A stretch of 64,000 nucleotides of DNA, taken from assembly GCA_032430995.1 (NCBI GenBank), contig GCA_032430995.1_3952.1; one strand, 5' to 3'. The stretch comes from a phage. Under the pieces are notes generated by a model. That model searched no databases and was not told the DNA's origin. It was given only the letters and a program-made list of their open reading frames with translations. Position 1 is the first letter of the stretch. Each line of letters opens with the position of its first letter. A program made the translations under genes and the position numbers. Of the stretch, positions 23,902-29,682 are shown piece by piece.

Positions 23902-25317
23902 ATGAGCGAATTATTTAAACATGCGCACCTTCATGCAGGTCGAACTGAAAATGGTGCTGTAAACCATACTTCATCAATGTCTGCTCTTGTAGACTTTTAC
24001 AAAGCTGCTGGTTCAAGCCGTAGCAACGTAGAAATCTTACCAGACCTGTTCTACAAAGCTTTGCGTGAGGATGTTGATGTTGCAGTTCGTATTTTGCTTC
24101 ATATGCGAGATGTACGAGAAGGTATGGGTGAGCGTAAAGCCTTCAGAACTGTTTTGCTTCAAGCAATTGAAGATAAAGTTTTAGAGCCTACACAGGTTCT
24201 TCGCATTATGGATAAGATTGCAGAACTTGGTCGTTTTGATGACTTCAAAATCTTCGTGGGTACTTGTTTCGAGACAGATGCCTTCAAACATTTAGAAGCA
24301 GCATTACTAGACCCTGCAACAGCAGGTTTGGCGGCTAAGTGGTTACCACGAGTCAAACCACGTCATAAGCAGTTTGTAAAACGTTTCTGCAAGTTTGCCA
24401 ACTTGAGTGAGAAAGAGTACCGCACACTGTTGTCTGCACTATCTGATACAGTTGAGCAAAAAATCTCTGCTAATGAGTTTGGTAAGATTGACTACAGTAA
24501 GATTCCTTCACTTGCTGCTGCACGTTACCAAAAACTGTTTAACCGTAAAGATGGAGAGCGTTACAAAGCTTACATCGAGTCCTTATCAAAAGGTGAGACT
24601 AAGATTAGCGCTGGTGCTGTTTACCCATACGATGTGATTAAATCTGTCAAGCATGGTAATGCAGATGTTGCTAATGAGCAGTGGAAAGCACTACCAAACT
24701 GGATGGCAGAAGGTGAAAACATCTTGTGTATGTCTGATGTATCAAGTTCAATGTCTTGGGTGAATTTTGGCTCCATTACTGCTCTGGATATTGGTGTATC
24801 ACTTGCCTTGTATGTAGCAGAACGCAATACAGGTTGCTTTAAGAATGAGTTGATGGTTTATTCAACAAACCCTCACTTCATCGAACTGAGTGGTGATTTA
24901 CGAAACCGTCATCGTCAGGTGATGCGACACGTTGAATATGGCTCAACTAACTTACAAGCAGCTTTTGACCGCATTCTTGAGACAGGCAAAAGAAACAACT
25001 TGACTCAGAAAGATATGCCAAGTAAGCTTATCATCTTCTCCGATATGGAGTTTAATCAGGTTGATGGGGCTAACGGTCGTACAAACTTTGAAGCAATTCA
25101 GAGTAAGTACAAAAAAGCTGGATATGAGATGCCACAACTGGTATTCTGGTACTTAGCAAACCGTAATGGTACTTGCGAAGTATCTGTTAAGGATAACGGT
25201 GTAGCAATGGTATCAGGGTTCTCTCCAGCCACTTTAAAAGCTCTGCTTGGTGGTGAGAAGTTTGACCCAATCAGTGTAATGCTCAAAGCAGTAATGATTG
25301 ACCGTTATATCTGGTAA
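23902..25317 (+). CDS. Ro60/Rsr-like protein (TROVE-like N-domain plus vWA domain with MIDAS motif)
   Basis: 471 aa; MIDAS-like DVSSSM; C-terminal blocks (GSI, IIFSDMEF, VSGFSPATLKAL) resemble the Ro60 vWA region as recalled from memory. Confidence 0.45.
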   Translation: MSELFKHAHLHAGRTENGAVNHTSSMSALVDFYKAAGSSRSNVEILPDLFYKALREDVDVAVRILLHMRDVREGMGERKAFRTVLLQAIEDKVLEPTQVLRIMDKIAELGRFDDFKIFVGTCFETDAFKHLEAALLDPATAGLAAKWLPRVKPRHKQFVKRFCKFANLSEKEYRTLLSALSDTVEQKISANEFGKIDYSKIPSLAAARYQKLFNRKDGERYKAYIESLSKGETKISAGAVYPYDVIKSVKHGNADVANEQWKALPNWMAEGENILCMSDVSSSMSWVNFGSITALDIGVSLALYVAERNTGCFKNELMVYSTNPHFIELSGDLRNRHRQVMRHVEYGSTNLQAAFDRILETGKRNNLTQKDMPSKLIIFSDMEFNQVDGANGRTNFEAIQSKYKKAGYEMPQLVFWYLANRNGTCEVSVKDNGVAMVSGFSPATLKALLGGEKFDPISVMLKAVMIDRYIW

Positions 25318-25335
25318 AAAGTTTTAAAAAGGGTA

Positions 25336-25364
25336 TTGACAATGTGTTTAATACCCTTTAATAT
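25336..25364 (+). promoter_or_regulatory. sigma70-like promoter upstream of tRNA array
   Basis: TTGACA-17-TAATAT. Confidence 0.5.
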
Positions 25365-25481
25365 GTTCTACATAGAAACGAAATGAGAGCTTTTCTAAGA
25401 TACTGAAAAATATTTTAAAAAGTTCTTGACAACCACTAAAAAATAATGTTAAAGTGGTTACATAGAGTTTGAAAAGTTTAT

Positions 25482-25558: not shown

Positions 25559-25565
25559 AATTAAT

Positions 25566-25643
25566 GTTCCAGTGGACAAAATGGTAAAGTCACCACTCTT
25601 TCAAAGTGGATATTTGAGGGTTCAAATCCCTTCTGGAACGCCA
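25566..25643 (+). tRNA. tRNA-Glu (anticodon TTC)
   Basis: acceptor GTTCCAG/CTGGAAC; anticodon stem CCACT/AGTGG; CCA encoded. Confidence 0.7.
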
Positions 25644-25733
25644 GTTTTGACAGAAGACCAATTACAGCAAACTTAATCTACTCATCTGAAAGTTAATCGG
25701 ACAAAGAAGATATTTGGTCTGGTCATTAAGAAT

Positions 25734-25810
25734 TGCGGGTATAGAGAAAGGGCGTCTCACATGTCTCATTAGCATGGTATCGGCAGGTTCGACTCCTGCA
25801 CCCGCCTCCA
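25734..25810 (+). tRNA. tRNA with CAT anticodon (Met or Ile-lysidine), atypical
   Basis: T-arm GCAGG-TTCGACT-CCTGC; anticodon loop CTCATTA; 1:72 mismatch and 3-bp D-stem. Confidence 0.45.
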
Positions 25811-25893
25811 AATTTACAGAAGACCGTTTACAGCAATATTTATTAAATTTTTAGCGGAAAAATTGAAAGATACGGTCTGGTAATACTAAACAT

Positions 25894-25970
25894 GGTTAGG
25901 AAGCACATAAGGTATGTGCGGTCGCCTGTTAAGCGAATGGCACAGGGTTCGAATCCCTGACTAACCGCCA
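25894..25970 (+). tRNA. tRNA-Asn (anticodon GTT)
   Basis: T-arm CAGGG-TTCGAAT-CCCTG; anticodon loop CTGTTAA. Confidence 0.6.
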
Positions 25971-26039
25971 AATTTAGGAGAGAAGCGATTGCTCACCGAT
26001 TTGTAAGGTGCAAGTCCTTAGCCTGAATAGAAATCAAAT

Positions 26040-26127
26040 GTGTCGTTATCCCGTAGATGGTAGCGGTGGGGACTGTAAATCCCTTGTCATTGAGACTCGG
26101 TAGGTTCGACTCCTACACGGCACACCA
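26040..26127 (+). tRNA. tRNA-Tyr (anticodon GTA), class II
   Basis: long variable arm; anticodon loop CTGTAAA; T-arm GTAGG-TTCGACT-CCTAC. Confidence 0.65.
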
Positions 26128-26133
26128 AATAAA

Positions 26134-26211
26134 GGTTATGTAGTTTAATCTGGTTAAAATACTCCCCTGTCACGGGAGATGATGAGGGTTCAAATCCCTT
26201 CGTAACCGCCA
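26134..26211 (+). tRNA. tRNA-Asp (anticodon GTC)
   Basis: anticodon stem CTCCC/GGGAG, loop CTGTCAC. Confidence 0.7.
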
Positions 26212-26359
26212 ATTTTGAGAGGGCTATTTAGCCCCTCCCTTAAAGGGTTCTTACGAGTATTCTTTAAAGGAGCAGAAGACCAAATACAGCAAGTTATTTA
26301 AAATTTCAAGCCAATTTAATTTTGAAAAATTTAAAACTTGGTCTGGCTCAACAAATTTA

Positions 26360-26491
26360 CAGAAGACCGTTTACAGCAAAACTTAAACAATCTATTTCTC
26401 CGGTAAAGAAAAGGCGAAGGTTCGATTCCTTCACTCGGCAGATGTCGAGTTGGTGTAATGGTAGCACTTAAGATGATAAACAACGGTCTGG
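26360..26491 (+). ncRNA. candidate structured RNA with orphan tRNA-like T-arm (Y-RNA/YrlA-like hypothesis)
   Basis: flanked by AGACCGT / ACGGTCT arms; contains GAAGG-TTCGATT-CCTTC T-arm (26416-26432) without a full cloverleaf. Confidence 0.3.
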
Positions 26492-26640
26492 TAATTATCT
26501 TTGTAGATAAGTTATTAAGCTTACCTGTGAGTATGCGACCACAAAGGGTGAAAGGGTAAATTCTAGATTTAAACCCAAAAAGGCACATCGCTACAGACCT
26601 TAAGCAAGTCTGGGTAGCTTATCTACAAAGATAATTTAAT

Positions 26641-26716
26641 GGAAGTGTAGCAGAATGGTGATGCGGCAGACTTTTAATCTGACAGGCGATGGGTTCGAAT
26701 CCCTCCACTTCTACCA
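26641..26716 (+). tRNA. tRNA-Lys (anticodon TTT)
   Basis: acceptor GGAAGTG/CACTTCT; anticodon loop CTTTTAA; weak T-stem. Confidence 0.55.
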
Positions 26717-26794
26717 AATTCACCCTTAACTGAGAAACACCTGCGCGGCTGGAAACACCCACTCAACAGTTTCTCTAACTAGGGTACTTATTCT

Positions 26795-26871
26795 GGTTCA
26801 GTCGCAGATAAGGTAATGCAAGGGTCTCATAAGCCCTATGAATGTGGGTTCGATTCCCATCTGAACCTCCA
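26795..26871 (+). tRNA. tRNA-Met (anticodon CAT)
   Basis: acceptor GGTTCAG/CTGAACC; anticodon stem AGGGT/GCCCT, loop CTCATAA. Confidence 0.65.
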
Positions 26872-26872
26872 A

Positions 26873-26948
26873 GCTGGTATAGTTAAGAAGGTTATAACAC
26901 TCCCCTGATAAGGGAACATCGGTGGTTCGATTCCACCTACCAGTACCA
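26873..26948 (+). tRNA. tRNA-Ile (anticodon GAT)
   Basis: T-arm GGTGG-TTCGATT-CCACC; anticodon loop CTGATAA. Confidence 0.65.
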
Positions 26949-26963
26949 ATTTCAATAAAGTTG

Positions 26964-26992
26964 TTGACATTGAGATGTGACTACTTTATAGT
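26964..26992 (+). promoter_or_regulatory. internal sigma70-like promoter within tRNA array
   Basis: TTGACA-17-TATAGT. Confidence 0.55.
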
Positions 26993-27194
26993 AACCTTAG
27001 TTTTCGTTGCGTAGCGTCTATTTTGCAAATTTAAAATAAATGCAAACGACAATGTTTTTCTGGCAGTAGCTTGATAGGCTAAACACCAGTGAGGTCTTCC
27101 AATCCCTCATCAAAGAATTTGGCGTACTCGCCCACGGTATGATTAATAAGGTGGGCATCTTTAAGGGCTTTCTAAGAGAGTCTTTAAAGATAAT

Positions 27195-27271
27195 GCACCC
27201 TTAGTTCAATTGGATAGAGCAACGGTCTTCTAAATCGTTAGTTACAGGTTCGAATCCTGTAGGGTGTACCA
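27195..27271 (+). tRNA. tRNA-Arg (anticodon TCT)
   Basis: D-arm GTTCAATTGGATAGAGC; anticodon loop CTTCTAA; T-arm ACAGG-TTCGAAT-CCTGT. Confidence 0.7.
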
Positions 27272-27413
27272 AATAGTTAGCAGATTACTTAGACGGCCTT
27301 AGCGGGTCTTCCTGTAGGGAGGTGGTCTGTATCTCATGTTTTCCAGAACATGTAAATAATCTGAGAAGGAGCTTGACAGTGTTGAGATAACAGGGTAAGC
27401 TTCGAATTATAAT

Positions 27414-27496
27414 ATGGGACGATGTTAAGACTCTAAGGCATGAGCAACGGCCTCCAAAACCGTTTCAAAGGGGTTCAACTCCTCCGTCCCATGCCA
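27414..27496 (+). tRNA. tRNA-like gene, possible Trp (anticodon CCA), atypical D region
   Basis: acceptor ATGGGAC/GTCCCAT; loop CTCCAAA; D region about 6 nt longer than canonical. Confidence 0.35.
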
Positions 27497-27509
27497 AAGT
27501 CTTATTAGG

Positions 27510-27597
27510 GGTAGGTAGCGGCTAATGGTAGCCAAACTGTCTTGAAAACAGTTGCCACTGTAGAGATACGGTGAGGGTTCGACTCCTTTACTTACCG
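27510..27597 (+). tRNA. tRNA-Ser (anticodon TGA), class II
   Basis: anticodon stem ACTGT/ACAGT, loop CTTGAAA; long variable arm; no CCA encoded. Confidence 0.65.
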
Positions 27598-27853
27598 CCT
27601 AATAAGATTTACTCCGTCCATGCTTGTTCGCATTGTCGGTTTATCCCTCGTGTATTGTCGTACACTGTCAAAGCACCTAGTAGGTGTCACGGAGAAGAGA
27701 TAATATCAAGCTCTCCAAAGGTTCTAGTCACCGGATTAAACAAGACTATGCAAAGACCTATTTAGGTCTTTTTAGAGGGCTTCTAAGGTTATTAGTCGCT
27801 TGTTGTGGAACCTTGTTGCTTAGGTTCTTAGAAGTTCTCTAAAAAGATTTAAT

Positions 27854-27931
27854 GGGAGATTGACGGTAATTGGTAAACCTACCATCCTTAGAAGTTGGTG
27901 TTTGAGGGTTCGAATCCCTTGTCTCCTACCA
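27854..27931 (+). tRNA. tRNA-like gene, anticodon uncertain (best fold gives TAG)
   Basis: acceptor GGGAGAT/GTCTCCT; T-arm GAGGG-TTCGAAT-CCCTT; anticodon stem has a mismatch. Confidence 0.4.
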
Positions 27932-27938
27932 AATTAAT

Positions 27939-28014
27939 GCAGGTGTAGCAAAATGGTTATGCGGCTGACTCTTAATCAGTAAGACGATGGGTTCAATTCC
28001 CTCCACCTGTACCA
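27939..28014 (+). tRNA. tRNA-Lys (anticodon CTT)
   Basis: anticodon stem GCTGA/TCAGT, loop CTCTTAA; T-arm similar to Lys(TTT) copy. Confidence 0.5.
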
Positions 28015-28020
28015 AACATT

Positions 28021-28096
28021 GGGGATGTAGTTTACATGGTTAAAACATAAGTTTTGCAAACTTAAGTACAGGGTTCAATTCCCTGCTTCTCCACCA
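28021..28096 (+). tRNA. tRNA-Ala (anticodon TGC)
   Basis: D-stem GTTT/AAAC; anticodon stem TAAGT/ACTTA, loop TTTGCAA. Confidence 0.6.
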
Positions 28097-28102
28097 ATTA
28101 GT

Positions 28103-28177
28103 GCATCCATAGTTTAAACGGGAAAATTACAGTCTTCCAAACTGAGGTTGAGGGTTCGATTCCCTCTGGATGCTCCA
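28103..28177 (+). tRNA. tRNA-Gly (anticodon TCC)
   Basis: acceptor GCATCCA/TGGATGC; loop CTTCCAA; T-arm GAGGG-TTCGATT-CCCTC. Confidence 0.65.
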
Positions 28178-28183
28178 AACAAT

Positions 28184-28260
28184 GCTGCTTTCGTATAATT
28201 GGCTATTACACATCCCTTGTAAGGATGGAAATGCAGGTTCGAGTCCTGTGAGCAGCACCA
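28184..28260 (+). tRNA. tRNA-Thr (anticodon TGT)
   Basis: anticodon stem CATCC/GGATG, loop CTTGTAA. Confidence 0.7.
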
Positions 28261-28356
28261 ATTCAGAGGTCAAGTGAAAGACCGCTTTGAGTCAACTGAA
28301 GACCGTAACAAATACCACGGAGTTGAGTTAGCGGCACAACTTCAGACCTCTTTCAT

Positions 28357-28431
28357 ACTCGCTTAGTTTATATGGTAAAACATCACCCTTACAAGATGAA
28401 GAAAAAGGTTCAAGTCCTTTAGTGAGTACCA
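28357..28431 (+). tRNA. tRNA-Val (anticodon TAC)
   Basis: T-arm AAAGG-TTCAAGT-CCTTT; loop CTTACAA. Confidence 0.6.
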
Positions 28432-29651: not shown

Positions 29652-29682
29652 CTTCTAAGGATTCTTACGAGAGTCCTTAAAT

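What the first reader, a model, noticed from the sequence alone, without database searches (positions are those of the whole stretch)
25651..28365. Family of conserved stem-forming spacer modules between tRNA genes
At least four spacers share the 5' word CAGAAGACC(N3-4)TACAGCAA and a 3' complementary word (A/T)(C/T)GGTCTGG 60-130 nt downstream: 25651-25722, 25817-25880, 26273-26346, 26360-26491. A short-loop variant lies at 26594-26614 and a related CAGAGGTC ... GACCTCTG element at 28262-28340. A second recurrent spacer word (TTCTTACGAG / TTCTAAGAGAG) appears at about 26229, 27165, 27810 and 29655. Ordinary tRNA spacers are short and unconserved; the repetition suggests discrete small RNAs or dedicated processing/protein-binding sites.
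Basis: seen in the sequence. Interest (0 to 1): 0.65.

Follow-up and report, generated by a model that had tools for sequence, protein, structure and literature searches.

The report
Phage Y-RNA-like small RNAs beside Ro60-like gene
The repeated "spacer modules" in this Felix O1-like phage's tRNA cluster are a family of small non-coding RNA genes that almost always travel with a gene for a Ro60-like ring protein in many phages and bacteria, so they look like an undescribed relative of the Ro60/Y-RNA particle, with an RNA "handle" that also matches the Class I RNAs of social amoebae.

Summary
Four modules (25654-25722, 25820-25880, 26276-26346, 26363-26492) share one "handle": AAG, a 6-8 bp terminal stem, NNN, CAGCAA, a variable interior, the complementary strand, then C-UG-G.

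The window is a Felixounavirus. The gene just upstream (23902-25317; Pfam DUF2828+DUF7788) is predicted to fold like Ro60 (TROVE ring plus vWA domain).

The same handle lies next to DUF2828 genes on the same strand in unrelated phages (metagenomic, Listeria, Staphylococcus, Campylobacter, Mycobacterium, Vibrio) and in 80 bacterial contigs. A covariance model gives 172 of 173 hits on the gene strand. Ounavirinae that lack the gene at the matching position also lack the modules.

In 21 of 80 bacterial loci the layout is handle RNAs, DUF2828, then RtcB, often with WYL-domain genes upstream. This parallels Salmonella rsr-yrlBA-rtcBA.

Module D carries a permuted tRNA-like domain, as YrlA does. Short modules match the Rfam Dictyostelium Class I RNA model end to end, but below its threshold. 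No Rfam family reaches threshold.

Best reading: these are Y-RNA-like partner RNAs of a Ro60 paralogue. Expression, processing and protein binding are inferred, not shown. The 28262-28340 element and the TTCTTACGAG hairpins are separate features.

The parts
23902..25317 (+). Gene for a 471-aa DUF2828+DUF7788 protein with a predicted Ro60-like fold (helical-repeat TROVE-type ring plus C-terminal vWA domain). Proposed protein partner of the RNAs.
   Evidence: Pfam DUF7788 1.8e-43 and DUF2828 2.1e-30. PHROG 850 'RNA-binding protein'. AlphaFold2 model pLDDT 89.3, pTM 0.89. The Foldseek PDB top 12 hits are all Ro60/TROVE structures, E 1e-8 to 8e-7, TM 0.52-0.65 over the full length.
25336..25455 (+). 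Two tandem near-consensus sigma-70-type promoter-like sites (25336-25364 and 25426-25455), just upstream of tRNA-Pro. They probably drive the transcript that contains modules A-D.
   Evidence: The scan gives 10/12 matches for each site. It finds no plus-strand terminator-like site between them and 26700 except one at 25328-25359, which overlaps the first promoter. Consensus matches only.
25654..25722 (+). Module A, a short handle RNA. AAG; stem GACCAA (25656-25661) pairing with TTGGTC (25714-25719); TTA; CAGCAA at 25665-25670; 3' C-UG-G. Lies between tRNA-Glu and tRNA-Met.
   Evidence: Model R1 scores it 46.6 bits, but it was a training member. Its orthologues in other genera keep the handle while the interior is replaced.
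25820..25880 (+). Module B, a short handle RNA. Stem GACCGT/ACGGTC; CAGCAA at 25831-25836. Lies between tRNA-Met and tRNA-Asn.
   Evidence: R1 scores it 51.3 bits, as a training member. Rfam Dicty_Class_I_RNA scores it 20.1 bits over the full model, on 25822-25879.
26276..26346 (+). Module C, a short handle RNA. Stem GACCAA/TTGGTC; CAGCAA at 26287-26292.
   Evidence: R1 scores it 52.2 bits, as a training member.
26363..26492 (+). Module D, a long handle RNA. Stem GACCGTT/AACGGTC; CAGCAA at 26374-26379. The interior is a permuted tRNA-like domain.
   Evidence: R1 gives a partial hit of 21.7 bits; D was not in the training set. Rfam tRNA gives a partial hit of 22.5 bits over the anticodon-like arm, T arm and 3' acceptor strand.
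26395..26467 (+). tRNA-like core of module D. Extra anticodon-arm-like hairpin 26395-26411; T arm GAAGG-TTCGATT-CCTTC 26416-26432; acceptor-like hairpin ACTCGGC-AGAT-GTCGAGT 26433-26450; D arm GTGT-AATGGTA-GCAC 26453-26467. The order (3' half before 5' half) is the same as in YrlA.
   Evidence: Sequence and fold. RNAalifold on 8 long modules from 6 phage lineages predicts the T arm, acceptor hairpin and D arm de novo, and 12 of 16 pairs show compensatory changes. The acceptor hairpin differs completely in Sf13 (ACACG/CGTGT) and in Mijalis (ACCCTTC-GCCAAACA-GAAGGGT).
26492..26640 (+). Tentative fifth relative. A structured RNA closed by a stem of about 24 bp, whose inner hairpin (26594-26612, CAGAC-CUUAAGCAA-GUCUG) resembles a handle with no cargo.
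   Evidence: z = -7.2. The stem and hairpin are conserved with compensatory changes in Mooglevirus and in pSJ21. R1 does not hit it, so membership is unproven.

Best explanation
Modules A-D are genes for small non-coding RNAs. They are co-transcribed with the phage tRNAs and released during tRNA processing.

Each RNA has a conserved 'handle'. Its 5' and 3' ends pair in a stem of at least 6 bp whose first pair is G-C. The stem is flanked by 5' AA and 3' UG-N, and the single-stranded motif CAGCAA starts exactly 9 nt after the G.

I propose that the handle is the binding site for the Ro60-like ring protein encoded just upstream (DUF2828+DUF7788), in the way that the Y RNA stem binds Ro60.

The interior is a variable 'cargo'. 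In A-C it is a short AU-rich hairpin, comparable to YrlB or Class I RNAs. In D it is a permuted tRNA mimic, comparable to YrlA.

By analogy with Rsr/YrlA/PNPase and the rsr-yrlBA-rtcBA operon, the cargo would gate the ring or recruit enzymes that act on tRNAs or repair RNA. The particle would then survey or repair tRNAs and other structured RNAs during infection.

Shown here: the RNA family exists, its stem covaries, it is strand-specifically linked to DUF2828 genes across phyla, the protein has a Ro60-like predicted fold, and bacterial versions sit in RtcB operons.

Inferred: expression and RNA ends in this phage, direct protein-RNA binding, and the biological role.
For: 1. Four exact copies occur in the window and nowhere else in 64 kb.

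2. The upstream protein folds like Ro60: the top 12 PDB hits are all Ro60/TROVE structures.

3. In 75 distant phage loci (38-47% protein identity, 649 kb), AG-N8-CAGCAA occurs 76 times on the gene strand and 6 times on the other. Of the 76, 53 have a stem of at least 6 bp ending in C+UG within 230 nt; after shuffling the downstream sequence, none do. Of 56 strict modules, 44 lie within 700 nt of the gene.

4. Covariance model R1 gives 85/86, 74/74, 10/10 and 3/3 hits on the gene strand. The sets are phage metagenome loci, 80 bacterial contigs, four distant isolate phages (Listeria cka4, Staphylococcus 6ec, Campylobacter PC14, Mycobacterium Chaser) and Listeria cka15. Most of these hits were not training members.

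5. The otherwise invariant closing G-C pair becomes A-U in all three Staphylococcus phage copies.

6. Erwinia M7 and Pectobacterium Arno162 keep the flanking DUF5681 gene and the tRNA array, but lack both the DUF2828 gene at that position and the modules.

7. RtcB follows DUF2828 on the same strand in 21 of 80 bacterial loci, and WYL-domain genes lie upstream.

8. Rfam YrlA hits long modules in relatives at 26-42 bits, E down to 6e-6. The tRNA-like core covaries.

9. In Listeria phage CKA15, the homologous protein (CKA15_055) was matched by HHpred to Rsr. The authors suspected that very abundant non-coding transcripts upstream of it were Y RNAs (PMC12282133).
Against: There is no RNA-seq, end-mapping or binding data for this phage or for any handle RNA.

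The Ro60 likeness rests on a predicted structure. Neither a single-sequence search nor a profile search against PDB sequences finds Ro60, and Pfam TROVE is not hit.

The handle lacks the Y-RNA/YrlA protein-binding motif GNCGAA(N0-1)G and the bulged helix (PMC4201824).

Window module D is not detected by the Rfam YrlA model even at E<=10.

At E<=0.05 the model finds a module in only about 42 of 75 distant phage loci. Either linkage is incomplete, or the model misses variants and long forms.

In CKA15, the single most abundant transcript maps to a different, ROOL-like RNA, not to the handle RNAs.
Confidence: 0.7

Rival explanations
1. The modules are punctuation or processing signals for the tRNA array: RNase III, E or P sites, or spacers that help the precursor fold. 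On this reading they have no life as RNAs after cleavage.
For: They lie between tRNAs, 7-13 nt from tRNA ends, within one likely transcription unit. About a third of distant phage DUF2828 loci also have tRNAs nearby.
Against: The same handle occurs next to DUF2828 genes where no tRNAs are adjacent, as in Chaser and 6ec. Homologous tRNA arrays without the gene have none. A single-stranded hexamer that stays invariant at a fixed register across phyla points to a specific binding partner, not to a generic RNase site.
Confidence: 0.07
2. The modules are decayed tRNA genes or recombination scars in a fast-evolving tRNA cluster. Module D would be two broken tRNAs lying side by side.
For: D contains a T arm, a D arm and an acceptor-like helix. 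Rfam tRNA gives a partial 22.5-bit hit. Relatives carry homing endonuclease insertions in the array.
Against: The short modules have no tRNA features. The handle is conserved from Mycobacterium and Listeria phages to Clostridia. The permuted arrangement of T arm, acceptor hairpin and D arm recurs with compensatory changes in unrelated phages, and the YrlA model recognises it. Decay would not preserve this.
Confidence: 0.04
3. The handle RNAs are substrates or cis-elements of an RtcB-type pathway, not protein-bound cofactors. Examples: RNAs whose juxtaposed 5' and 3' ends are ligated into circles, or autoregulatory leader elements of the DUF2828 mRNA.
For: The ends are held together by the terminal stem. 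RtcB is the commonest neighbour in bacteria. In bacteria most copies lie within 500 nt upstream of the gene on the same strand.
Against: In this phage and many others, the copies lie downstream of the gene and are separated from it by promoters and tRNAs, so leader-type regulation does not fit here. There are up to five copies per locus, with diverse cargo. Most phage loci have no RtcB nearby.
Confidence: 0.13
4. The modules are a miniature mobile repeat (MITE-like, or a homing-endonuclease target) spreading within phage genomes.
For: There are multiple copies per genome with inverted-repeat-like ends. The interiors appear to be swapped between genera.
Against: They are strictly strand-specific relative to one gene (172 of 173 hits). 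They are never dispersed elsewhere in the 64 kb window. The stem sequence differs in every lineage while pairing is kept, and there are no target-site duplications.
Confidence: 0.03

Closest known systems
Bacterial Ro60 (Rsr) with its Y RNAs YrlA and YrlB, and the Salmonella rsr-yrlBA-rtcBA operon (Chen et al. 2013, 2014; PMC4201824; Rfam RF02553)
   Same: A ring-shaped TROVE+vWA-type protein gene has several small RNA genes on the same strand within about 1-2 kb. The RNA ends pair in a stem next to a short conserved motif. One RNA carries a permuted tRNA mimic in the same order (T arm, closed acceptor hairpin, D arm), and another is a short hairpin RNA. RtcB sits in the same operon in bacteria. 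The Rfam YrlA model scores long modules of related loci at 26-42 bits.
   Different: The protein is DUF2828/DUF7788, not Pfam TROVE, and its likeness to Ro60 shows only at the fold level. The motif is single-stranded CAGCAA after the stem, not GNCGAA(N0-1)G within a helix. All scores fall below the YrlA gathering score of 69, and window module D is not hit at all. Chen et al. searched only genomes annotated as having a TROVE protein, so they would not have covered these loci. In this phage the RNAs are embedded in a tRNA array.
Class I RNAs of dictyostelid social amoebae (Aspegren 2004; Avesson 2011; Kjellin 2021, PMC7919456; Rfam RF01414)
   Same: Both are about 60 nt long and start with AAG. 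Both have a 6-bp terminal stem whose structure, not sequence, is conserved and whose first G pairs with the C of a 3' CUG(U). Both have a single-stranded motif directly after the 5' strand: CCUUACAGCAA in amoebae, (N)UUACAGCAA here. Both have a variable AU-rich interior with an A-rich run before the 3' strand, and both occur in many copies per genome. The model trained on Dictyostelium hits phage modules end to end with matching boundaries: 20.1 bits in the window and 24.3-25.7 bits in relatives.
   Different: Scores are below the gathering score of 41.5. The G lies 9 nt before CAGCAA here and 10 nt in amoebae. The 3' end is CUGG, CUGA or CUGU rather than CUGU. There is no DUSE promoter. The hosts are phages and bacteria, whereas Class I RNAs were reported as unique to Dictyostelia. 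The known amoebal binder is the RRM protein Rnp1A. I could not test whether amoebae have a DUF2828 protein.
Eukaryotic Ro60-Y RNA, vault (TEP1-vault RNA) and telomerase TROVE particles
   Same: A TROVE-type ring protein is paired with small structured RNAs whose terminal stem is the protein handle and whose loop region is the effector part (established knowledge; PDB 1yvp and 2i91 are among the fold hits).
   Different: The RNA motif is different, the protein family has diverged at the sequence level, and the context is prokaryotic and viral.
Phage T4 stable RNAs (species 1 and 2, rnaC/rnaD) encoded in the T4 tRNA cluster (my own knowledge, not checked here)
   Same: They are small stable non-tRNA RNAs co-transcribed and co-processed with phage tRNAs.
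   Different: I know of no handle motif or linked Ro-like protein for them. Any relationship is untested.
Circularly permuted tRNA genes (for example in the red alga Cyanidioschyzon merolae; my own knowledge)
   Same: In module D, the 3' half (T arm and 3' acceptor strand) precedes the 5' half (5' acceptor strand and D arm).
   Different: The acceptor ends are joined by a 4-nt loop. The anticodon stem is replaced by the handle. There is no BHB motif and no evidence of maturation to a functional tRNA.

Membership tests
Y RNA / YrlA (Rfam RF02553; Chen et al. 2014) | Encoded within about 4 kb of, and on the same strand as, a Ro60 (TROVE) orthologue | tested here: inconclusive
   The modules lie 340-1175 nt downstream of, and on the same strand as, a protein with a Ro60-like predicted fold. 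However, that protein is DUF2828/DUF7788, not Pfam TROVE, and no sequence-level link to Ro60 was found.
Y RNA / YrlA (Rfam RF02553; Chen et al. 2014) | The 5' and 3' ends pair to form the protein-binding stem | tested here: met
   All four modules have a terminal stem of 6-8 bp. The stem covaries across lineages.
Y RNA / YrlA (Rfam RF02553; Chen et al. 2014) | GNCGAA(N0-1)G motif near the 5' end (vertebrate equivalent GGUCCGA, in a bulged helix) | tested here: not met
   The motif here is CAGCAA, single-stranded, just after the stem. In the cmscan alignment of a related long module, ACAGCAAAUAC falls on YrlA acggCgaAUGC. The position is similar but the bases differ.
Y RNA / YrlA (Rfam RF02553; Chen et al. 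2014) | tRNA-like domain with T arm, closed acceptor stem and D arm | tested here: met
   Module D spans 26416-26467. The consensus of 8 long modules has 12 of 16 covarying pairs. Modules A-C lack this domain, as YrlB does.
Y RNA / YrlA (Rfam RF02553; Chen et al. 2014) | Reaches the Rfam gathering score (69 bits) | tested here: not met
   Window D gives no hit at E<=10. Long modules in relatives score 26.2-42.1 bits.
Y RNA / YrlA (Rfam RF02553; Chen et al. 2014) | Physically bound to the Ro60-type protein | not testable with these tools
   This needs immunoprecipitation or in vitro binding.
Dictyostelid Class I RNA (Rfam RF01414; Kjellin 2021) | Short terminal stem (about 6 bp) joining the 5' and 3' ends, with structure rather than sequence conserved | tested here: met
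   Five of six pairs covary, and the sixth covaries in Staphylococcus phage 6ec.
Dictyostelid Class I RNA (Rfam RF01414; Kjellin 2021) | 11-nt motif CCUUACAGCAA next to the 5' strand, with U3, C6, C9, A10 and A11 nearly invariant | tested here: inconclusive
   A, B and D have UUACAGCAA (9 of 11) and C has AUACAGCAA. Across the family CAGCAA is invariant and the preceding U is found in at least 90% of members. The two leading C residues are absent and the register is shorter by 1 nt.
Dictyostelid Class I RNA (Rfam RF01414; Kjellin 2021) | Conserved ends: 5' AAG and 3' CUGU | tested here: inconclusive
   The 5' AAG is present in all four modules. The 3' end is CUGG here and CUGA, CUGU or CUGG across the family. 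True RNA ends are unknown.
Dictyostelid Class I RNA (Rfam RF01414; Kjellin 2021) | Reaches the Rfam gathering score (41.5 bits) | tested here: not met
   Window B scores 20.1 bits and D scores 12.8 bits. Relatives score 24.3-25.7 bits over the full model. Kjellin et al. used a working cut-off of at least 25 bits plus a stem.
Dictyostelid Class I RNA (Rfam RF01414; Kjellin 2021) | DUSE promoter about 60 nt upstream; dictyostelid host | tested here: not met
   This is a phage with sigma-70-type promoters.
Ro60 / TROVE protein family (for the upstream gene) | Helical-repeat ring plus C-terminal vWA domain | tested here: met
   The AlphaFold2 model has pLDDT 89. The best PDB matches are Ro60 from Xenopus, Deinococcus Rsr and Thermus phage phiLo Ro60, over the full length. 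The next-best matches are vWA domains. This is a prediction only.
Ro60 / TROVE protein family (for the upstream gene) | Sequence match to Pfam TROVE or to Ro60 sequences | tested here: not met
   Pfam reports only DUF2828 and DUF7788. A single-sequence search and a profile search against PDB sequences find no Ro60. NCBIfam gives no hit.
Canonical tRNA (for module D) | Cloverleaf whose acceptor stem is formed by the molecule's own 5' and 3' ends, with a 7-nt anticodon loop | tested here: not met
   ARAGORN does not call it. Rfam tRNA gives only a partial 22.5-bit hit, below the 29-bit threshold. The halves are permuted and the acceptor is closed by a loop.

The most novel reading that the evidence does not exclude
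The handle RNAs of phages and bacteria and the Class I RNAs of dictyostelid amoebae could be one family spanning domains of life. They would be the cognate 'Y RNAs' of the DUF2828 branch of Ro60-like proteins, a branch that also occurs in eukaryotes. On this reading, amoebal Class I RNAs, whose molecular function has been unknown since 2004 and which were reported as unique to Dictyostelia, would work as partners of a DUF2828-type ring protein. The phage version would be an RNA quality-control or repair particle that infection brings along with its own tRNA set.
Probability: 0.35. Interest if true: 0.92.

Novelty: new variant of a known kind. Interest (0 to 1): 0.8.

Why it matters
1. It gives a concrete, testable RNA partner and a likely activity to DUF2828/DUF7788. 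This protein family is in 710 phage records and had 1,891 database hits in a capped search, yet I found no functional study of it.

2. It explains conserved 'spacers' in the tRNA arrays of Felix O1-type phages, which are used for Salmonella typing and biocontrol. It also explains unannotated gaps next to 'RNA-binding protein' genes in Listeria P100/A511-type, Staphylococcus, Campylobacter and Mycobacterium phages.

3. It extends the Ro60/Y-RNA principle (ring protein, stem handle, exchangeable cargo including tRNA mimics) to a second protein family with a different handle.

4. It links Dictyostelium Class I RNAs to a prokaryotic and viral system, which turns an old open question into a direct experiment.

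5. The RtcB linkage in bacteria suggests a role in RNA repair. That is relevant to the contest between phages and host nucleases that target tRNAs.

Tried and rejected
- **Self-cleaving ribozyme or other known RNA family.** Rfam scans of the window region and of 20 related loci, at gathering threshold or by E-value, returned only tRNAs, tmRNA, a ROOL-like RNA and sub-threshold YrlA and Class I hits.
- **Protein coding.** Only trivial ORFs of 46-49 aa cross the modules. The interiors are replaced wholesale between relatives.
- **Functional permuted tRNA gene for D.** I considered this because of the 7-bp acceptor complementarity. I rejected it as the main reading because short modules share the handle without any tRNA parts, and because the architecture equals YrlA.
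- **Ro60 link by sequence.** phmmer and profile searches against PDB sequences gave nothing. Only the fold comparison worked.
- **Defence-system membership.** PADLOC gave no hit for the protein or for RtcB; only the WYL regulators matched.
- **Recurrent neighbours in the phage loci.** These were just lineage synteny (DnaJ, ClpP, RNase HII) and told me nothing about function.
- **A DUF2828 protein in Dictyostelium.** The AlphaFold-database fold library was unavailable, and literature searches for DUF2828, PF11443 and UCP015417 found only incidental mentions, mostly in plant papers. Avesson 2011 and the 2020 Wolin review are not held.
- **Mapping the Listeria CKA15 'three highly transcribed regions'.** The only region with published coordinates (26,236-26,727) corresponds to the ROOL-like RNA, not to the handle RNAs.
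- **The 28262-28340 element.** Its alignment with relatives gave no covariation information.

Full report
**What the window is.** The region is almost identical to the tRNA cluster of Felix O1-like phages (Felixounavirus, Ounavirinae). There are 327 phage records with megablast matches, and 235 records cover at least 80% of 25560-26720. ARAGORN finds 26 plus-strand tRNA genes between 25482 and 30765.

**The observation.** AGACCNNNTACAGCAA occurs exactly four times, at 25655, 25821, 26277 and 26364, all on the plus strand. Each is followed 58-126 nt later by N2-3-GGTCTGG.
- The pairing is (A)GACC+N2-3 with N2-3+GGTC(T).
- The variable positions covary between copies: AA/TT in A and C, GT/AC in B and D.
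- All four MFE folds are closed by this stem.
- The four-module observation is therefore confirmed.

**What lies next to the modules.** The ORF that ends 336 nt upstream of module A (23902-25317) carries Pfam DUF2828 and DUF7788. It belongs to PHROG 850, 'RNA-binding protein'.
- An AlphaFold2 model built from 38 homologues has pLDDT 89.3 and pTM 0.89.
- Its 12 best PDB matches are all Ro60/TROVE structures: Xenopus Ro60 with and without RNA, Deinococcus Rsr, Thermus phage phiLo Ro60, and a 'Trove domain' entry. E-values are 1e-8 to 8e-7 and TM-scores 0.52-0.65 over the full length. Isolated vWA domains follow.
- No sequence-level link to Ro60 is detectable.
- Some depositors already label homologues 'Ro-like RNA binding protein' or 'RNA-binding protein'. 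The protein's general nature is therefore anticipated in annotation, but not studied.

**Anatomy of module D.** Between the handle strands, D contains these elements in order:
- a short closing helix (CUUA/UAAG);
- an anticodon-arm-like hairpin (26395-26411);
- a canonical T arm, GAAGG-TTCGATT-CCTTC (26416-26432);
- a 7-bp hairpin, ACTCGGC-AGAT-GTCGAGT (26433-26450);
- a D arm, GTGT-AATGGTA-GCAC (26453-26467).

This is a tRNA whose acceptor ends are joined by a loop and whose anticodon side is opened and attached to the handle. It is the architecture described for YrlA (PMC4201824). In relatives the acceptor hairpin is entirely different but still pairs: ACACG/CGTGT in Shigella phage Sf13, and ACCCTTC-GCCAAACA-GAAGGGT in Citrobacter phage Mijalis, where the 3' strand is followed by GCCA.

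**The family outside this phage group.** A 149-kb metagenomic phage has a DUF2828 protein only 48% identical. Directly downstream of that gene it has a promoter and five modules with the same layout, two of them tRNA-like, followed by its tRNA array.

From such cases the signature is (A/U)AG, a stem of at least 6 bp starting with that G, then CAGCAA beginning exactly 9 nt after the G. After the variable interior come the complementary strand ending in C, then UG-N.

In 75 distant phage loci fetched through the protein (38-47% identity, 649 kb):
- AG-N8-CAGCAA occurs 76 times on the gene strand and 6 times on the other.
- Of the 76, 53 have the stem plus CUG within 230 nt. After shuffling the downstream sequence, none do.
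- The strict signature gives 56 modules on the gene strand and 1 on the other. Of the 56, 44 lie within 700 nt of the gene, either upstream or downstream.

I aligned 30 short modules (A2). The stem columns show four base-pair types at most positions. That set was selected for pairing, so one search is the fair test.

A covariance model (R1) then gave these results:

| Search set | Hits at E<=1 | On gene strand |
|---|---|---|
| Window plus 82 phage loci | 86 | 85 |
| 80 bacterial genome contigs (Clostridia, Chloroflexi, Bacteroidales, Rickettsiales and others; 33-42% protein identity) | 74 | 74 |
| Listeria cka4, Staphylococcus 6ec, Campylobacter PC14, Mycobacterium Chaser (27-37% identity) | 10 | 10 |
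| Listeria cka15 | 3 | 3 |

- Within the window, R1 hits only A-D.
- Most bacterial hits lie within 500 nt upstream of the gene.
- None of the bacterial contigs or the five isolate phages were in the training set.
- In the three Staphylococcus phage copies, the otherwise invariant closing G-C pair is A-U. This argues for pairing rather than sequence identity at that position.

**Co-absence.** Erwinia phage M7 and Pectobacterium phage Arno162 keep the DUF5681 gene that precedes the DUF2828 gene in this window, and they keep the tRNA array. They have no DUF2828 gene at that position and no model hit in their arrays. Mooglevirus and Yersinia phage P778 have the gene and have modules. The P778 stem GGACTGT/ACAGTCC differs from AGACCGT/ACGGTCT by two compensatory changes. 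This check covers only the 10 kb fetched per genome.

**Functional context.** Clustering ORFs in the 80 bacterial loci shows that the commonest neighbour is RtcB (PF01139, 3e-58). It lies directly downstream on the same strand in 21 loci. WYL/WCX-domain proteins lie upstream in about 25 loci. The order is therefore WYL gene, handle RNAs, DUF2828, RtcB. This mirrors rtcR and rsr-yrlB-yrlA-rtcB-rtcA in Salmonella (PMC4201824, PMC7790460). Phage neighbourhoods gave no comparable clue. Among phage loci, 24 of 75 have tRNAs within 4 kb.

**Relation to known RNA families.** No Rfam 15 family reaches its gathering score on any module. Below threshold, two families hit specifically.
- *YrlA (RF02553)* matches long modules in relatives at 42.1, 39.2, 38.9, 28.7 and 26.2 bits. 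E-values go down to 6e-6 in a 64-kb, all-family scan. Two of the matches span the full model.
- RNAalifold on eight long modules from six lineages predicts the T arm, acceptor hairpin and D arm de novo, with compensatory changes at 12 of 16 pairs.
- Window D itself is not reached by the YrlA model.
- *Dictyostelium Class I RNA (RF01414)* matches short modules over the full model, with boundaries exactly at G...CUG. Scores are 20.1 bits for window B, and 25.7, 25.0, 24.9 and 24.3 bits in Sf13 and two metagenomic phages.

Kjellin et al. (PMC7919456) define Class I RNAs by these features:
- a length of about 60 nt;
- a 5' AAG;
- a 6-bp terminal stem conserved in structure but not sequence;
- the adjacent single-stranded motif CCUUACAGCAA;
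- a variable remainder;
- a 3' CUGU.

They report finding none outside Dictyostelia. The phage modules share every one of these except the two leading C residues, a 1-nt difference in register, and the last base. In a single-family test, each of the four hits would have E of roughly 1e-3, and all of them fall on independently defined modules. The resemblance is therefore not chance. Whether it reflects common descent, or convergence on related proteins, is open. I could not determine whether Dictyostelium has a DUF2828 protein. The only demonstrated direct Class I binder is the RRM protein Rnp1A.

**Mechanism proposed.**
- *Shown:* the RNA family, its covarying stem, the fixed-register hexamer, its linkage to a protein with a Ro60-like fold, tRNA-mimic cargo in some members, and RtcB operons in bacteria.
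- *Inferred, transcription and processing:* modules A-D are transcribed from the tandem promoter-like sites at 25336-25455 together with the tRNAs. RNase P and 3' processing of the flanking tRNAs would free them. Module ends lie 7-13 nt from tRNA ends.
- *Inferred, binding:* the DUF2828 ring would bind and stabilise the RNAs through the handle.
- *Inferred, function:* the cargo would gate the ring or tether enzymes. Examples are PNPase-type exonucleases, as for Rsr/YrlA, or RtcB and tRNA-modifying or repair enzymes for the tRNA mimic. The particle would then act on damaged or misfolded tRNAs and other structured RNAs during infection.
- *Confidence:* about 0.7 for 'cognate RNP of the Y-RNA type', and clearly lower (about 0.4) for the specific repair or quality-control role.

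**Indirect experimental hint.** In Listeria phage CKA15, the homologue CKA15_055 was matched by HHpred to Rsr and was found in purified virions. The authors suspected that three extremely abundant non-coding transcripts within 2 kb upstream were Y RNAs (PMC12282133).

I located three handle RNAs in the unannotated gap directly upstream of that gene, at OR088597.1 25,288-25,553. However, the one region for which the paper gives coordinates (26,236-26,727, annotated as 'ORFs' 059-061) corresponds to the position of a ROOL-like RNA. That RNA scores 89.4 bits in the sister phage cka4, against a gathering score of 99.1. Expression of the handle RNAs is therefore still unproven.

- *26594-26614.* This is the conserved tip, CAGAC-CUUAAGCAA-GUCUG, of a conserved structure with a stem of about 24 bp at 26492-26640. 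It looks like a handle without cargo, but it lacks the C of CAGCAA and the model does not detect it. I rate it a possible relative.
- *28262-28340.* It folds well (z = -4.0) but has no motif and no informative variation. It is not a member.
- *The TTCTTACGAG/TTCTAAGAGAG words.* These are the tips of three simple hairpins directly 5' of module C, tRNA-Arg and tRNA-His. They are restricted to close relatives. They are a separate feature, and I did not determine what they do.

**Novelty.** Pairing a Ro-type protein with Y RNAs is a known principle, and annotators and one paper have guessed at it for phages. I believe four things are new:
- the RNA family itself, with its handle definition, its short and long forms, and its cargo diversity;
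- its near-universal linkage to DUF2828 genes in phages and bacteria, including RtcB operons;
- its presence as 'spacers' inside tRNA arrays;
- its match to Dictyostelium Class I RNAs.

I base this on finding no Rfam family and no paper in the held library linking DUF2828 or Class I RNAs to Ro60, TROVE or Y RNAs. I classify it as a new variant of a known kind.

Noticed in passing
window 26492-26640: A strongly structured RNA (MFE -48.3 kcal/mol, z = -7.2) lies between module D and tRNA-Lys. It is closed by a stem of about 24 bp that shows compensatory changes in Mooglevirus and pSJ21. Its interior differs between two allele groups.
   Followed up: partly
window 28261-28356: A stable structure (z = -4.0) lies between tRNA-Thr and tRNA-Val. 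It contains CTGAAGACCGTAACAAATACCACGG, which looks like a decayed B/D-type handle (AAGACCGT...ACGG). It is conserved in Sf13 but absent from Erwinia and Pectobacterium relatives, where Thr and Val are adjacent.
   Followed up: partly
window 26239-26271, 27157-27191, 29656-29679: Three hairpins of 10-16 bp share the stem core UUAAAG/CUUUAA and the tips UUCUUACGAG or UUCUAAGAGA (z down to -4.7). Each ends a few nt before module C, tRNA-Arg or tRNA-His. They may be processing or stabilising hairpins.
   Followed up: partly
window 27413-27494: A tRNA-like cloverleaf that ARAGORN does not call. It has a 9-bp acceptor stem, a 9-nt 'anticodon' loop CCUCCAAAA, an atypical T loop and a GCCA tail. Rfam tRNA-Sec scores it 23 bits. 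Relatives annotate pseudo or 'OTHER' tRNAs in this region.
   Followed up: partly
window 26964-27194: The best promoter-like site in the cluster (TTGACA-17-TATAGT, 11/12) is followed by about 200 nt of non-coding sequence before tRNA-Arg. This stretch gets weak tmRNA and permuted-tmRNA hits (29.2 and 15.7 bits), well below threshold.
   Followed up: no
L171 1929-2480 (Listeria phage cka4), corresponding to OR088597.1 about 26,195-26,746 in phage cka15: A ROOL-like RNA (RF03087, 89.4 bits, E 6e-17, against a gathering score of 99.1) sits between two tRNAs about 1 kb upstream of the DUF2828 gene. It coincides with CKA15 'ORFs' 059-061, which the CKA15 paper reports as up to 67% of phage transcripts without naming ROOL. 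An E<=0.01 scan of cka15 itself did not return ROOL.
   Followed up: partly
L050 3733-3835: In one metagenomic phage, a sequence scoring as a complete tRNA (Rfam tRNA 52.9 bits, UGU anticodon) is nested inside a handle: AAGGTTAG-TTT-CAGCAA...CTAACC-TGA.
   Followed up: no
L016, L017, L020, L024, L025 (for example L025 1264-1375): A third cargo class recurs inside handles in several metagenomic phages. Its core is CCUUUCUGGAGGGGAAAG...AAACUCGCC. No Rfam match was seen in the scans that included these loci.
   Followed up: no
window 25654-25722 compared with L010 5754-5817, L001 2846-2911 and L008 5550-5606: The interior of module A exists as two unrelated alleles. The other allele (hairpin UUUC-GCGCAUA-GAAA) is shared by a Felixounavirus, by Mooglevirus and, in similar form, by an unrelated 149-kb phage. 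This suggests that cargo subtypes are conserved or exchanged.
   Followed up: no
L002 3494-3613 (Citrobacter phage Mijalis): In the D-type module, the acceptor hairpin's 3' strand is followed by GCCA, that is a discriminator base plus an encoded CCA. This recalls M. smegmatis YrlA, which is cut by RNase P and receives CCA.
   Followed up: no
L170 4430-4705 (Mycobacterium phage Chaser): Three handle RNAs (short, tRNA-like, short) followed by an intrinsic terminator lie directly downstream of the 'Ro-like RNA binding protein' gene. Here the 3' flank is C-AG-U instead of C-UG-N.
   Followed up: partly
L006 2025-2453 and several records: Relatives carry HNH or endonuclease VII homing-endonuclease genes inserted at different places in the same tRNA and module cluster. 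This explains length differences between otherwise collinear arrays.
   Followed up: no
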